In this document: positions 45,298-48,800 of the stretch, piece after piece | Layout of the letters: every line of letters begins with the position of its first letter | Numbering within the stretch: position 1 is the stretch's first letter | Source of the DNA: a virus | Reading direction: 5' to 3' (one strand) | IMG/VR virus record: IMGVR_UViG_3300036818_000070 | Span: 1 to 64,000 of that record | DNA: 64,000 nucleotides | Notes under the pieces: model-generated | Database searches by the model: none | What the model was told of the DNA's origin: nothing | What the model saw: the letters and a program-made list of their open reading frames with translations, nothing else | Made by a program: the position numbers and the translations under genes

Positions 45298-45981
45298 GCC
45301 TCATCGCAGAGCTGTGCCGCGTCTTCAACGCCAGGCCGGAGGCGATCGGCTGCGCAATGCGCCACCGCCAGATCACCGTGGACGGCTACGTGATGCGTCC
45401 TGAGTACGACCGGCGCTGGTCGGAGCGACAGCTTCGCGGTCGCATGGCCGCGCTGAACTTCAACAAGGGCGGGACGAAACGGGAGGCGAGGCTTTATGGC
45501 TGAACACAAGTCGAATGGTAATGACGTTCTGGGCGCGCAGATCATGGTCACGCCGGAGCGCGTGTGTTGCGCCGCCCACCTAGAGCCGCTGCGCTGGAAG
45601 TGGCCGGATGGCTTCGCAACCTTCTCGCTGGCGATGCTGCAACCGGCGCTCGCCTCGGACGGCCTCCAGCGTGCGGTGCGAGCCCTCGTGAGGCGGCCCG
45701 GCGGCAAGTTGCCAGTGGAGATGGTCAATCAGGTCTTCGAGAAGCGCCCGATGTGCTTCTACCTGACGCGCGATGAGCTGCGAGACGCGCTCGTGGAGAG
45801 CGGTGTCACTCGCAAGCAGCGCTGCGACGTGTGCGGTCACATCGAGCGTGGGGCACCGTGTCGCGTCAAGATGGCGCCCGGTTCGGCTGCGGAGTTCGCA
45901 GAGCAGACACTGTGCGTCAACTGCTGGCTGGATGCCGGGGAGCTGGCCCACCGAGAGTGGGACGCCCGTGGCCGCGGGTGA
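45294..45981 (+). CDS. two hypothetical genes (45294-45503; 45496-45981 Zn-binding)
   Basis: Coupled ORFs; CDVC/CVNC. Confidence 0.55.
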
Positions 45982-47716
45982 GCTAGGAGTCATCGACGGC
46001 GCGCAGGAGATGCGCGCACTGGAAGGCTCGTGGCTATTCGATGAGGACGACTGGGCTCTGATCGCGCAGCTCCAGGACCCGATCTACATGGCCGAGCTGC
46101 TGTGGCAGGACCCGAAGAACAACGAGTACTCGGGCACCTATCACGTGCGCGATTACCAGTACCCGATGTTCCGGCCGACGACCAACTATGAGGGCTACCC
46201 GTGCGCCCGCGACGTCGGGAAGTCGGAGTCGATCAAGGCGAAGGCTGGCACGCACCCGTTCAAGCGAATGGGCGAGGACATGCTCATCACCGCGCCGGAG
46301 CTAATCCATCTTGAGGGCGTCACGCAGCAGGTCGAGCAGCGCCTCAGCGACACGCGGCTGACCAGCGACTTCCTGAAGAAGGAGAACGGCAAGACGGGCT
46401 TCACGCACAAGCCATTCCAGGTGGACTTCGCCGACGGCACGCGCATCGTCGGCCGCATACCAAAGCTCAACGGCACGGGCGTGAAAGGCCAGCACGTTCC
46501 CGACCTGCTCGTGGACGAGGGCCAGGACTACCCCGAGAACGGCTGGATTGAGGTCTTCCCGACCGTCATCAAGGACCACAAGGACGCCGACGGCAACTAC
46601 GACTTCACGTTCCACTTCTACGGCGTGCACAGCGGCGCTGGCGGCGGCCAGTTCGCGCAGCTATCAACCTCCGGTGCGTACAAGGTGACAGCGATCACGG
46701 CGCTGATGAAGCCCGGTTGGAACAAGCAGGAGAAGGAGGCCGCCAAGGCGATGTACGGCGGCTCCAACACTCCCGACTACCGGCGCAACATTCTCGGAGA
46801 GCGTGGCGCCAAGCTGTCACAGTTCTTCAGCACCGCGCGACTCATGGCCTGCATGGACCAGGACAAAGAGTCGCACTACAACACCGCGATCTTCAAGGAA
46901 CAGGAGTTCGAGGCCGAGCAGCTCGACACACTCATCGGGGCGGACGGCGACGTCGGCGACTTGCTCGACCTGCCGGAAGATCTCGGTCAGCAGGTCTTCT
47001 GCGGCATGGACGTCGGGCTCGTCACCGACCCGACTGTCATCACCGTGTGGGCGATCATGCGCCACGAAAGAAAGGCGCGGCTCGCGCTCGTCCGGATGAT
47101 TCACCTCTGGCGGTTCACCGAGAAGCAGATCAGGCAGGTCACGTACCGCATCGGACGCCAGTACGGACTGACGCTACGCAGCTTCGGGCAAGACATCACC
47201 GGCCTCGGCCTGCCGCTCTACCAGTCGATGGAAGCCGACGAGCAATGCCCGAAGCATCTCCGCGAGGTGTCACGCGGCTACGTCTTCAACGCCAAGGTTC
47301 CCGTCTCGGTTGACCCCAACTATGTCAGCGAGCAGGGCCAACAGATGGTCGATCAGTACGGGCATATCGTGCAGGTGGTCCGTGACAAGTGGACAGGCCA
47401 GGAGCGGCTCGTGGCGTTCATGTCGATGATCGAGGCCAGCACACGCTACCTCCGCAGCTTCGTGGATGAGACCTTCCTGCTGCTGCCGTTCCACGACAAG
47501 CTCATCCGTGACTTCCAGGGCGAAACAGAGCAGCGCGTTCGGGCGATGGCCGGGGTGCGCAAGAAGCCCAACGCGTTCCACATGCTCGACTCCGCGCGCG
47601 TCATGGCGATGGCCTACAAAGCGGGGGAGATGGAGGAGCAGGTTTACGCGCGCAAGGCCGGTCCGGTGATGGACAAGGCCGTGGACTTCAACATGGACGC
47701 GGTGGCGCTCGGATGA
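45968..47716 (+). CDS. terL: terminase large subunit
   Basis: ARDVGKS, LLVDEGQD, GMDVG, HMLDSAR; start could be 46010. Confidence 0.85.
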   Translation: MAAGELGVIDGAQEMRALEGSWLFDEDDWALIAQLQDPIYMAELLWQDPKNNEYSGTYHVRDYQYPMFRPTTNYEGYPCARDVGKSESIKAKAGTHPFKRMGEDMLITAPELIHLEGVTQQVEQRLSDTRLTSDFLKKENGKTGFTHKPFQVDFADGTRIVGRIPKLNGTGVKGQHVPDLLVDEGQDYPENGWIEVFPTVIKDHKDADGNYDFTFHFYGVHSGAGGGQFAQLSTSGAYKVTAITALMKPGWNKQEKEAAKAMYGGSNTPDYRRNILGERGAKLSQFFSTARLMACMDQDKESHYNTAIFKEQEFEAEQLDTLIGADGDVGDLLDLPEDLGQQVFCGMDVGLVTDPTVITVWAIMRHERKARLALVRMIHLWRFTEKQIRQVTYRIGRQYGLTLRSFGQDITGLGLPLYQSMEADEQCPKHLREVSRGYVFNAKVPVSVDPNYVSEQGQQMVDQYGHIVQVVRDKWTGQERLVAFMSMIEASTRYLRSFVDETFLLLPFHDKLIRDFQGETEQRVRAMAGVRKKPNAFHMLDSARVMAMAYKAGEMEEQVYARKAGPVMDKAVDFNMDAVALG

Positions 47717-47749
47717 GTAAGATTCGGCGTACGCAGTCGGCCGACAGGT

Positions 47750-47895
47750 CCCGGCGCCACGTTCCAACCTACACGCCGTCGCTGGCGAGCGGCCCGAAGC
47801 CCCGAGGTCATAGGCCGAGCATTGCGATTCGGATGGCACCGCTTGAGGGGCGGGTGCGGAAGGCGGAGGGGTTCGACTCCCCGCGTGGCGCCGGG
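47750..47895 (+). ncRNA. tRNA-like structured RNA
   Basis: 12-bp terminal stem plus GGGG-TTCGACT-CCCC T-arm. Confidence 0.55.
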
Positions 47896-47902
47896 GTCCG
47901 CC

Positions 47903-48325
47903 GTGGCTAAGACCTTCGAGGAACTCCAGGACGTGCTCCACCGAGCGCTGCCGATGCGGCCCCCGAAGTTCGAGCCGGGCACGTCCGGCCGCGAGAAGGT
48001 GTCGGCGATCGAGGACTACCTGCTGGAGTCCGCCTACATCCACGCCGAGCTGGAGGAGGCGCTGCATTGGCTCACGGCGCTCGTGGAGCACTTCAAGGAG
48101 CAGATCGACGCGATGCAGGGCTGGGAGGTTGGGCTGCCCAGCAAGCCGCGAGACAAGATCACCCGGCAGGACGTGCTTACGGCCAAACGGAAGCTGAACC
48201 CAACGCCGTTCGAGATCGGTGGCGATGCGCGCCGCACCCGCGACTCGGTGCTGCGCCAGATCGCTCGATTCGAGTACGACACGACTGTGATTTCGAGGGC
48301 ATACTCGGTGATCTCCGGTGCCTGA
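47903..48325 (+). CDS. hypothetical helical protein
   Basis: Good codon bias. Confidence 0.65.
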   Translation: MAKTFEELQDVLHRALPMRPPKFEPGTSGREKVSAIEDYLLESAYIHAELEEALHWLTALVEHFKEQIDAMQGWEVGLPSKPRDKITRQDVLTAKRKLNPTPFEIGGDARRTRDSVLRQIARFEYDTTVISRAYSVISGA

Positions 48326-48800
48326 GATACCCCTCCGCGCGAGGGATGGTTCGGTACGTGCGACGGTGACCGTCGATGACGCCGACTACGTCGAGCTGAG
48401 CAGGTACTCGTGGTGTCTGCGCGTCGGGACCACCGGCATCCGGTACGCCCAGCGCATGACGCCCCGCGACAGTGAAGGTCGGCAGACGACCGTCCTCATG
48501 CACCGTCAGGTCATGGGCTTCCCGGAGGCGAAGGTTGACCACATCAACGGCGACGGCCTAGACAACCGCCGCGAGAACCTGCGCGCAGCGTCCGACAGCC
48601 TCAACGGCTGGAACCGGCGGGGCGCCGACAGGGACAACGCCACGGGGTGCCGGGGAGTCACCAGGGCTCGGGGGCGGTTCCGCGCCCACGCGACGGTCAA
48701 GGGGCGCTATCACCACCTCGGTATCTACGACACGGCGGAGAAAGCGGCGCAGGTTGCGGCCGATTTCAGGGCCACGGTGCCCGATTTGGCGCTCTTATGA
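48318..48800 (+). CDS. HNH homing endonuclease with AP2 domain
   Basis: MHR, VDHINGDGLDNRRENLR; GVT...FRA...HLG.YDT.E.AA. Confidence 0.88.
   Translation: MPEIPLRARDGSVRATVTVDDADYVELSRYSWCLRVGTTGIRYAQRMTPRDSEGRQTTVLMHRQVMGFPEAKVDHINGDGLDNRRENLRAASDSLNGWNRRGADRDNATGCRGVTRARGRFRAHATVKGRYHHLGIYDTAEKAAQVAADFRATVPDLALL

What the first reader, a model, noticed from the sequence alone, without database searches (positions are those of the whole stretch)
47750..47895. ~146-nt tRNA-like RNA between terminase and portal genes
Seen: perfect 12-bp terminal stem CCCGGCGCCACG(47750-61)/CGTGGCGCCGGG(47884-95), with a T-arm GGGG-TTCGACT-CCCC(47868-82) one nt from the 3' strand. The ~105-nt interior has several hairpins (GCCGTCG/CGAGCGGC, CCGA/TCGG, GCACCGC/GCGGGTGC) but no canonical D or anticodon arm. 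Too long for a tRNA and too short for tmRNA. Inference: a novel tRNA-mimic ncRNA (decoy for anticodon nucleases, RNase P/Z processing signal in the late mRNA, or packaging-associated RNA).
Basis: partly seen in the sequence, partly recalled or inferred. Interest (0 to 1): 0.8.

Follow-up and report, generated by a model that had tools for sequence, protein, structure and literature searches.

The report
Orphan tRNA-like fold after phage terminase
A 186-base gap after the terminase gene of an uncultured soil-type phage holds a one-off RNA fold that copies the top half of a tRNA; it looks more than accidental, but no relative carries it, so whether it does anything is untested.

Summary
The 12-bp stem extends with G-U pairs to 16 contiguous pairs (47747-62/47883-98) and stacks directly on a canonical 4-bp T hairpin (47868-82). 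No dinucleotide shuffle of the window (0/400) paired a T-arm with an adjacent stem of 9 bp or more.

The element lies in a 186-nt gap with no clear coding signal, between the large terminase and a conserved 140-aa gene, not next to the portal.

Default ARAGORN and Rfam find nothing. Relaxed ARAGORN finds a sub-threshold class-II tRNA-Leu(GAG)-like cloverleaf at 47814-92. Infernal gives 13 bits, which is noise level.

The same slot is empty in one related phage and holds unrelated small genes or an HNH gene in the others. No second copy was found anywhere, so covariation cannot be tested.

A 65-codon ORF bridges the gap, overlapping both neighbours. It has no homologues and poor codon usage.

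My best reading (0.42) is a lineage-specific tRNA-type element acting as a t-element-like RNase P/Z processing signal, possibly derived from an irregular "8/4" tRNA. Chance, a dead tRNA gene and a bridging ORF remain real rivals.

Earlier notes of this scan describe similar tRNA-like spacers in other phages.

The parts
47717..47902 (+). 186-nt gap between the large-terminase stop (TGA 47714-16) and the GTG start of the conserved 140-aa gene; a lineage-specific filling of a hypervariable slot
   Evidence: GC3 is flat across frames. The codon log-likelihood is negative in all six frames, whereas real genes score +0.13 to +0.66. The database gene caller starts the next gene at 47903 and calls nothing in the gap. 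The slot is empty in L047 and differently filled in L002-L005, L007 and L048/49.
47747..47762 (+). 5' strand of the closing (acceptor-like) helix; the perfect 12-bp core is 47750-61
   Evidence: Pairing probability is about 1.0 in 146-350-nt contexts.
47883..47898 (+). 3' strand of the closing helix (core 47884-95); it ends 4 nt before the GTG of the next gene and so covers that gene's ribosome-binding region
   Evidence: That it covers the ribosome-binding region is read directly from the sequence.
47868..47882 (+). T-arm: 4-bp stem GGGG/CCCC with a 7-nt loop UUCGACU (G53, T54, Psi55, C56, R57, A58 and C61 all canonical)
   Evidence: It scores 12.1 bits alone against the T-arm of the mascRNA model. 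Forcing it costs 0.6 kcal/mol relative to the MFE, and its ensemble probability is 0.17.
47775..47793 (+). Hairpin of 7 bp with one bulged G and a CUGG tetraloop, in the extra 58 nt between the acceptor strand and the D-like region
   Evidence: It forms in both the free and the constrained folds.
47836..47857 (+). Anticodon-like hairpin: CCGC/GCGG stem (extendable across a bulge) with a 7-nt loop UUGAGGG; GAG is at 47845-47
   Evidence: Stem pair probabilities are 0.22-0.53.
47814..47892 (+). Sub-threshold class-II tRNA-Leu(GAG)-like cloverleaf using a second, imperfect 5' acceptor strand (GCCGAGC)
   Evidence: ARAGORN scores it 97.6, just under the default cut-off and the best sub-threshold hit in the window. 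Shuffles reach that score 0.13 times per 64 kb. The Rfam tRNA-Sec model gives 13 bits, which is noise level. This acceptor has pairing probability 0.00 when the upstream strand is present.
47713..47910 (+). 65-codon ORF bridging the gap (ATGA overlap with the terminase stop, 8-nt overlap with the next gene's start); very basic and Arg/Pro/Gly-rich
   Evidence: No homologues were found in 5.8 billion or 1.84 billion proteins, apart from a spurious match to a repeat protein. GC1/2/3 is 0.66/0.66/0.78 and the codon log-likelihood is -0.11.
45773..47716 (+). Large terminase subunit (the true start is probably downstream of 45773)
   Evidence: The translation shows Walker A (ARDVGKS) and Walker B (LLVDEGQD) motifs. 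It is 31% identical over 91% of its length to the annotated TerL of Caudovirales GX15bay. Pfam, PHROGs and PDB give no match.
47903..48325 (+). Conserved 140-aa gene of unknown function that follows the terminase in all relatives
   Evidence: Fifteen homologues besides the window's own copy, at 37-63% identity; synteny.

Best explanation
The gap holds a lineage-specific tRNA-type RNA element. A long acceptor-like helix (13 pairs, up to 16 with wobbles) stacks directly on a canonical 4-bp T hairpin, so it copies the acceptor/T 'top half' of a tRNA in the 8/4 geometry. This top half encloses an irregular body of about 105 nt, which contains an anticodon-like loop (GAG) and an extra hairpin between the acceptor and the D-like region. 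The gap has no promoter or terminator of its own, so the element would be transcribed within the late operon. Inferred mechanism: host RNase P measures 12 bp from the T loop and cuts near 47754/47755, and RNase Z or 3' trimming cuts near 47890-91. This would separate the terminase message from the downstream message. It would also free the ribosome-binding region of the 140-aa gene, which the helix otherwise buries, and release a tRNA-shaped RNA of about 137 nt. In short, it would work like a t-element (tRNA punctuation). It most likely descends from an irregular or class-II tRNA gene that landed in this cargo slot. The anatomy, the statistics, the context and the absence from relatives are shown. 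Transcription, cleavage and any effect on translation are inferred.
For: The T-arm plus adjacent 12-bp perfect stem occurred in 0 of 400 shuffles at 9 bp or more. In real viral DNA, T-arm motifs with adjacent stems of 7 bp or more are almost always tRNAs, 20 of 21. Four further pairs, three of them G-U, extend the helix on the + strand only. The T loop is canonical and lies on the sense strand of the operon. The helix has probability about 1.0, and the T hairpin costs only 0.6 kcal/mol. The location is one of about ten stretches of 180 nt or more in 64 kb without coding signal. There is no promoter or terminator in the gap. ARAGORN and Infernal both pick a tRNA-clan alignment starting at 47814. 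Replacing the poor proximal acceptor strand by the upstream one lifts the ARAGORN score to 101-102, above where the default cut-off lies (97.6-100.4, inferred). The 3' strand ends 4 nt before the next start codon. Known precedents are t-elements cut by RNase P/Z (PMC1920247) and irregular 8/4 tRNAs with an extra loop between the acceptor and D arms, described from peat and forest soil (PMC5389517, PMC7609411).
Against: It is a singleton. There is no second copy in its own 80-kb genome, none in IMG/VR by four exact 15-25-mers, none in GenBank phages, and none in 185,579 species genomes by a 21-mer, apart from one hit in a Prevotella MAG where ARAGORN calls no tRNA. All nine related loci lack it. 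So there is no covariation or conservation. The overall fold energy is ordinary, z = -1.3. The tRNA covariance models score at noise level: RF00005 finds nothing at E <= 10, and RF01852 gives 13 bits, matched by a 13.2-bit hit elsewhere in a relative. Across a scan of about 250,000 windows, a per-window chance of about 1e-4 still predicts some accidents. An intact ORF bridges the gap with coupling-type overlaps, which is unexpected for a pure RNA gene. No expression data could be obtained.
Confidence: 0.42

Rival explanations
1. Accident in a junk spacer. The gap is decaying DNA left by gene turnover in a hypervariable slot, and the T-arm-like hairpin and the 12-bp inverted repeat coincide by chance with no function.
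For: The slot content turns over freely among relatives, and one relative has no spacer at all. There is no conservation anywhere. The fold energy is not unusual. Covariance-model scores are at noise level. About 0.9 T-arm motifs per shuffled 64 kb, and 12-bp inverted repeats within 250 nt at about 3 per window by my estimate, are each common. The first 36 nt of the gap's ORF resemble the 5' end of the slot gene in L048 (56% identity, above the 99.9th percentile of random), which hints at a remnant.
Against: The joint event (T-arm abutting a 12-bp perfect stem) is about 1e-4 per window and occurred in 0 of 400 shuffles. It lies on the sense strand and in a non-coding stretch, which makes up about 5% of the window. 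The helix is extended by four more pairs on the + strand only. A 7-nt U33/purine-37 loop is also present.
Confidence: 0.25
2. The functional unit is the 65-codon ORF 47713-47910. Either it makes a small, very basic protein, or it is simply a translated bridge that keeps translational coupling between the terminase and the next gene across an insertion. The RNA features are then incidental.
For: The ATG overlaps the terminase stop (ATGA) by way of a rare GGA codon, which makes up 9% of Gly codons. The stop overlaps the next start by 8 nt. A frame open across the whole gap has roughly 20% chance on its own (my estimate). All five distinct filled slots in relatives hold small coupled ORFs. L048's ORF is also 65 codons long and starts MSKI. 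The ORF's frame scores better than the other two forward frames, -0.11 against -0.77 and -0.47. The helix buries the next gene's ribosome-binding region, so a ribosome passing through would be needed to open it.
Against: There is no homologue in 5.8 billion or 1.84 billion proteins; the only hit is a coiled-coil repeat artefact. The collection's gene caller did not call it. The codon log-likelihood is negative where real genes score positive (+0.13 to +0.66) and three of the five relatives' slot ORFs score +0.34 to +0.45. GC2 of 0.66 and 20% Arg are typical of out-of-frame high-GC DNA. Frame 1 is also open across the gap.
Confidence: 0.13
3. A dead tRNA gene: 47814-47892 is a decayed class-II tRNA-Leu(GAG) or allo-tRNA-like pseudogene, and the upstream 12-mer complement is fortuitous.
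For: The ARAGORN score of 97.6 is the best sub-threshold hit in the window and is reached 0.13 times per shuffled 64 kb. The fold has U33, G37, GG in the D loop, a variable arm, and discriminator G followed by CC. A GAG anticodon would read CUC/CUU, which make up 41% of this phage's Leu codons.
Against: Decay that spares a perfect 12-bp helix and a perfect T loop while wrecking the D arm, the anticodon stem and the proximal acceptor is not the pattern of neutral decay. The proximal acceptor never forms when the upstream strand is present, p = 0.00. No tRNA genes exist in this genome or in the four relatives' records searched. Nearly the whole Infernal score comes from the T-arm, 12.1 of 13.0 bits.
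Confidence: 0.12
4. A DNA-level feature: a 146-bp miniature mobile element with 12-bp terminal inverted repeats, or a pair of protein-binding half-sites.
For: The 12/12 repeat is perfect, with no wobble inside the core. The slot is a known insertion point, with HNH genes here or nearby.
Against: It is a single copy in the genome, and no other copy was found in any collection. The 12-mer is not enriched, with 6 hits at one mismatch or fewer against 2.6 expected. No target-site duplication is visible in the sequence. The T loop and the wobble extensions make sense only as + strand RNA.
Confidence: 0.05

Closest known systems
t-elements and tRNA punctuation (plant mitochondria, haloarchaea; Forner et al. 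2007, PMC1920247)
   Same: A tRNA-like fold with an acceptor-type stem and a T arm but no working anticodon branch, embedded between coding regions of a polycistronic transcript. In those systems it is thought to direct RNase P/Z cuts that create mRNA ends.
   Different: t-elements are organellar or archaeal, usually of tRNA size or smaller, and their mRNA ends were mapped experimentally. This element is 146 nt, lies in a phage late operon, is a single copy, and has no mapped ends.
Allo-tRNAs and 'irregular' 8/4 tRNAs with an extra loop between the acceptor and D arms (Mukai et al. 2017, PMC5389517; review PMC7609411)
   Same: It has a 4-bp T stem stacked on an acceptor of 8 bp or more, a variable-arm-like hairpin and extra structure between the acceptor strand and the D region. 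An (8/4) allo-tRNA with the same GAG anticodon is documented. Those RNAs come from peat and forest soil Acidobacteria and from phages, and some are thought to be non-translational.
   Different: Those RNAs are of tRNA size (my recollection, about 90 nt), with a long D stem and tetraloop directly after the acceptor, and mostly G73 or U73.
Stable tRNA-like RNAs of phage T4 (RNA C and D, species 1 and 2) and T5 (RNA1 and RNA2)
   Same: Phage-encoded RNAs of 120-140 nt with tRNA-like ends and a non-tRNA body, of unknown function. This rests on my own knowledge and on earlier scan notes, not on a test here.
   Different: Those RNAs sit in tRNA gene clusters and are conserved. This element stands alone in a structural-gene operon of a phage in which no tRNA gene was found.
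Canonical class-II tRNA-Leu (Rfam RF00005)
   Same: The T loop, a 7-nt anticodon-like loop UUGAGGG, a short variable arm, and a G-C-C sequence after the acceptor.
   Different: It fails RF00005 at E <= 10 and ARAGORN's default cut-off. The D arm and anticodon stem carry mismatches, the T stem has 4 bp, and bacterial tRNA-Leu uses A73 (established knowledge) where this has G or C.

Membership tests
Canonical tRNA (RF00005 / ARAGORN) | Covariance-model score at or above the gathering threshold (29 bits), or an ARAGORN default call | tested here: not met
   RF00005 gave no match at E <= 10 in the whole genome. ARAGORN's default run found 0 genes in all 80 kb. The relaxed run scored 97.6, just under the cut-off.
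Canonical tRNA (RF00005 / ARAGORN) | T arm with the G53-T54-Psi55-C56-R57-A58...C61 loop, adjoining the acceptor 3' strand | tested here: met
   GGGG-UUCGACU-CCCC lies at 47868-82 and abuts the helix with no spare nucleotide. The stem has 4 bp rather than 5.
Canonical tRNA (RF00005 / ARAGORN) | D arm and 5-bp anticodon stem, with a total length of about 70-95 nt | tested here: not met
   The D stem has a G-G mismatch and the anticodon stem an A-G mismatch. With the thermodynamically dominant acceptor strand the RNA is 137-146 nt.
tmRNA | G3-U70 in the acceptor stem, a tag reading frame, and detection by ARAGORN or RF00023 | tested here: not met
   No G-U at the third pair in any register. ARAGORN's tmRNA search at a 40% threshold found nothing. 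Rfam found nothing.
Allo-tRNA / irregular 8/4 tRNA (Mukai 2017) | 12-bp acceptor branch split 8/4 or 9/3 | tested here: met
   A 4-bp T stem followed directly by at least 8 pairs, C47755-U47762 with G47883-G47890.
Allo-tRNA / irregular 8/4 tRNA (Mukai 2017) | Long D stem with a tetraloop right after the acceptor, a long variable arm, G73/U73, and tRNA-like size | tested here: not met
   A long-stem tetraloop hairpin exists (47775-93) but lies 12 nt after the acceptor strand and 42 nt before the anticodon-like hairpin. The variable arm has only 3 bp. The discriminator is C47891 in the 8/4 register. The length is about 137 nt.
Allo-tRNA / irregular 8/4 tRNA (Mukai 2017) | Sequence or profile similarity to published members | not testable with these tools
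   No supplementary sequences are held. The tRNA-Sec model those authors used as bait scores 13 bits here, which is noise level.
t-element / tRNA-punctuation signal | tRNA-like acceptor and T-arm fold between coding regions of one transcript | tested here: met
   There is no promoter or terminator in the gap.
t-element / tRNA-punctuation signal | Cleavage by RNase P and/or RNase Z at the fold, creating mRNA ends | not testable with these tools
phi29-type packaging RNA (pRNA), Y-RNA-like YrlA, skipping-rope and other catalogued tRNA mimics | Match to the Rfam covariance model | tested here: not met
   All 4227 Rfam families were scanned at E <= 10 on 166 nt with permissive filters. Only chance-level hits came back.
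Miniature inverted-repeat mobile element | Multiple copies and a target-site duplication | tested here: not met
   Single copy; no other copies found; no duplication at the flanks.
Small phage protein gene | Conserved homologues and genome-typical codon usage | tested here: not met
   No true homologue. The codon log-likelihood is -0.11 to -0.21 against +0.13 to +0.66 for real genes. Translation as such remains untested.

The most novel reading that the evidence does not exclude
The element is a working, oversized irregular tRNA of about 137 nt. It would have an 8/4 acceptor branch, a GAG anticodon loop and a 58-nt extra domain between the acceptor and D arms, making it an extreme relative of the peat-soil 'E-loop' irregular tRNAs. 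RNase P/Z would excise it from the late mRNA, it would be CCA-tailed, and it would either be charged (reading or mis-reading CUC/CUU, 41% of the phage's Leu codons) or serve as a decoy for host tRNA-targeting defences.
Probability: 0.1. Interest if true: 0.75.

Novelty: new variant of a known kind. Interest (0 to 1): 0.35.

Why it matters
If real, it would be one more case of a phage borrowing the host's tRNA-processing enzymes to cut and activate a late structural-gene message. It would also show how such a module arrives as swappable cargo at a recombination hot spot next to the terminase gene. The link to the poorly understood irregular 8/4 tRNAs of soil bacteria would be new. As it stands it is a single sequence with no conservation or expression evidence, so on its own it cannot settle any open question.

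Tried and rejected
1. Known RNA families. Rfam at E <= 10 on 1.7 kb and on 166 nt gave only chance hits. ARAGORN's default tRNA/tmRNA run found nothing in 80 kb.

2. Search for homologues of the element.
- Megablast and blastn against GenBank phages gave nothing significant.
- Exact 25-, 21-, 21- and 15-mers in IMG/VR gave no related copy.
- A 21-mer in 185,579 species genomes gave one hit, in a Prevotella MAG, where ARAGORN calls no tRNA. This also rejects the idea that the 3' part is an attP-type copy of a host tRNA end.
- The scan's own index holds no look-alike.

3. Relatives found through the terminase and the 140-aa gene, in IMG/VR and JGI metagenomes. None carries the element, and ARAGORN at a 95% threshold finds nothing in their loci.

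4. tRNA genes elsewhere in this phage group: none. A 13.2-bit tRNA-Sec-model hit in relative G001 is treated as noise.

7. The HMMER hit P0017 for the 65-aa ORF is a repeat-driven artefact in a 950-aa coiled-coil protein.

8. A DNA-level repeat or binding-site idea was rejected because the 12-mer is not enriched.

9. A tmRNA-like reading was rejected because there is no G3-U70 and no detector support.

10. Programmed bypass or read-through was considered: the terminase's last codon GGA plus stop, a second TCGGATG 120 nt downstream, and a shared frame with the next gene. I dropped it because the relatives keep the two genes separate, and in L047 they overlap out of frame.

11. The gap after the terminase of Caudovirales GX15bay (256 nt) has no tRNA-like feature.

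Full report
**What is there.** The window belongs to an 80,165-bp IMG/VR virus record, 66% complete by CheckV and 65.5% G+C.
- The 'spare' nucleotide G47883 pairs with U47762, and three more pairs (U-G, G-U, G-C) extend the outer end.
- As + strand RNA the closing helix therefore has 16 contiguous pairs (47747-62/47883-98), and it stacks directly on the 4-bp T stem. On the minus strand the wobble pairs become mismatches.

**Context.**
- The upstream ORF (to 47716) is the large terminase. Walker A and B motifs are visible in its translation, and it is 31% identical over 91% of its length to the annotated TerL of Caudovirales GX15bay. Pfam, PHROGs and PDB do not recognise it.
- The next real gene starts at GTG 47903 and encodes a conserved 140-aa protein of unknown function. 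The collection's gene caller uses the same start.
- An HNH-AP2 endonuclease gene (48318-48800), an 83-aa ORF and an 852-aa ORF follow.
- The 186-nt gap 47717-47902 has flat third-position G+C and a negative codon log-likelihood in all six frames, while neighbouring genes score +0.13 to +0.66.
- The gap contains no sigma-70-type promoter and no intrinsic terminator.

**Is it more than chance?**
- On its own, a 12-bp inverted repeat within 250 nt is expected about three times per window at this G+C (my estimate), and a T-arm motif about 0.9 times per shuffled window.
- Together they are rare. In 400 dinucleotide shuffles no T-arm motif had an adjacent perfect stem of 9 bp or more, and 24 had 7 bp or more. 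My analytic estimate for 12 bp is about 1e-4 per window.
- The module is on the sense strand and in one of about ten stretches of the window that lack coding signal.
- Against this, the whole-element folding energy is ordinary (z = -1.30; minus strand -0.75). In a scan of about 250,000 windows, a few accidents of this kind must exist.

**How tRNA-like is it?**
- ARAGORN with default settings finds no tRNA or tmRNA in the whole genome, and RF00005 finds nothing at E <= 10.
- With relaxed thresholds ARAGORN reports a 79-nt class-II tRNA-Leu(GAG)-like cloverleaf at 47814-47892, scoring 97.6. This is the best sub-threshold hit in the window and is reached 0.13 times per shuffled 64 kb.
- That cloverleaf has U33, GAG, G37, GG in the D loop, a 3-bp variable arm and G-C-C after the acceptor. 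It also has mismatches in the acceptor, D and anticodon stems.
- Infernal's best tRNA-clan alignment (tRNA-Sec model, 13.0 bits) has the same 5' boundary. The T arm alone is worth 12.1 bits, and a 13.2-bit hit occurs elsewhere in a relative. So the cloverleaf body is not supported beyond noise.
- Thermodynamically the upstream strand wins completely. The outer helix has probability about 1.0 in contexts of 146-350 nt, the ARAGORN acceptor has 0.00, and forcing the T hairpin costs only 0.6 kcal/mol.
- Replacing the proximal acceptor strand by the upstream one raises the ARAGORN score to 101-102.
- The robust part is thus the acceptor/T 'top half'. The body (47763-47867) is irregular: a 7-bp tetraloop hairpin (47775-93), a poor D-like arm and an anticodon-like hairpin (47836-57).

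**Comparative evidence.**
- Relatives were found through the terminase (63-76% identity) and through the 140-aa gene.
- The position between these two genes is a cargo slot, and its content varies:
  - L047: the terminase stop overlaps the next gene's start, so the slot is empty.
  - L002 and L007: a conserved 56-aa gene.
  - L048 and L049: a 65-aa Cys-rich gene.
  - L004: a 108-aa gene.
  - L005: small ORFs.
  - L003: an HNH-AP2 gene plus small ORFs.
- None of these loci has the element or any tRNA-like hit.
- Exact-word scans of IMG/VR, blastn of GenBank phages and a 21-mer scan of 185,579 species genomes found no other copy and no host tRNA with this 3' end. The element is a singleton, so covariation cannot be tested.
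I therefore could not examine closer contexts or RNA reads.

**The bridging ORF.**
- ORF 47713-47910 (65 codons) overlaps the terminase stop as ATGA, through a rare GGA codon that makes up 9% of Gly codons. It overlaps the next start by 8 nt.
- Its first 36 nt are 56% identical to the start of L048's slot gene, above the 99.9th percentile of random comparisons, and both begin MSKI. The rest is unrelated.
- It has no homologue in 5.8 billion or 1.84 billion proteins. The single HMMER hit is a repeat artefact. The gene caller did not call it.
- It has GC2 of 0.66 and 20% Arg. Its codon log-likelihood is -0.11, although that is better than the other two forward frames.
- I read it as a possible translated bridge that preserves coupling, not as a conserved protein. 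It remains a genuine rival, and it is compatible with an embedded RNA signal.

**Mechanism proposed (inferred).**
- The element would be transcribed within the late operon and present host RNase P with a T loop capping a coaxial helix.
- Counting 12 bp from the T loop places the cut at about 47754/47755. 3' processing would fall at about 47890-91.
- The 3' strand of the helix reaches to 4 nt before GTG 47903, so the intact fold hides the ribosome-binding region of the 140-aa gene. Cutting the RNA, or a ribosome traversing the bridging ORF, would expose it.
- This is how t-elements are thought to create mRNA ends in plant mitochondria (PMC1920247).
- The 8/4-type geometry, the extra structure between the acceptor and D regions, the GAG loop and the likely soil origin of the related records recall the allo-tRNAs and 'E-loop' irregular tRNAs of peat and forest soil (PMC5389517, PMC7609411). 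Size, D arm and discriminator do not fit, and I could not obtain their sequences. That is a lead, not a membership claim.

**Earlier scan notes.** Notes of this scan (unchecked AI notes) describe acceptor/T-arm modules between genes of other phage operons, including a soil actinobacterial phage. I did not test those claims. They raise the prior that such modules are real, and they lower the novelty of this one.

**Verdict.** The most likely reading is a lineage-specific tRNA-type processing element (0.42). Chance (0.25), a translated bridging ORF (0.13), a dead tRNA gene (0.12) and a DNA-level repeat (0.05) are the rivals. Interest is moderate to low, because this is a single unconserved copy without expression data.

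Noticed in passing
window 47713-47903; L002:5700-5870, L003:2920-3750, L004:6719-7046, L005:4221-4410, L007:207-377, L047:2495-2505, L048:2317-2514: The junction between the large terminase and the conserved 140-aa gene is a cargo hot spot. It is empty in L047 and holds five different unrelated fillings (small genes or an HNH-AP2 gene) in the other relatives.
   Followed up: partly
window 48318-48800: An HNH-AP2 homing-endonuclease-type gene overlaps the end of the 140-aa gene. In relative L003 an HNH-AP2-type gene sits one gene earlier, in the terminase slot itself.
   Followed up: partly
window 47709-47715 and 47829-47835: TCGGATG occurs twice exactly 120 nt apart, the first copy containing the terminase's last codon GGA and its stop. 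The terminase frame stays open across the whole gap and is the same frame as the 140-aa gene. I considered read-through or bypass and judged it unlikely.
   Followed up: partly
window 47713-47748 vs L048:2317-2352: The 65-codon ORF and the unrelated 65-codon slot gene of L048/L049 share the start MSKI and 56% identity over their first 36 nt, then diverge completely. This may be a remnant of a replaced gene, or a conserved coupling context.
   Followed up: partly
L051:1501-1562 (G001:C1:59551-59612): A relative has a 62-nt mini tRNA-like fold in an apparently intergenic stretch about 15 kb from its terminase: a 5-bp T arm CGAGG-TTCGATT-CCTCG, a 6-bp closing stem ending in U-G, and a 7-nt CUCAACA loop. 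The tRNA-Sec model gives 13.2 bits, which is noise level.
   Followed up: partly
window 46001-47716: The large terminase of this phage group is missed by Pfam, PHROGs and PDB sequence search, although its Walker A and B motifs are plain. Its only GenBank phage relative is Caudovirales GX15bay from mangrove soil, at 31% identity.
   Followed up: partly
L053:6606-6861 (MK557849.1 21696-21951): GX15bay also has an unannotated 256-nt gap directly after its terminase gene. The Rfam scan gave only chance-level hits and I saw no T-arm in its sequence.
   Followed up: partly
A 7-mer this G+C-rich is expected many times by chance, so I did not pursue it.
   Followed up: no
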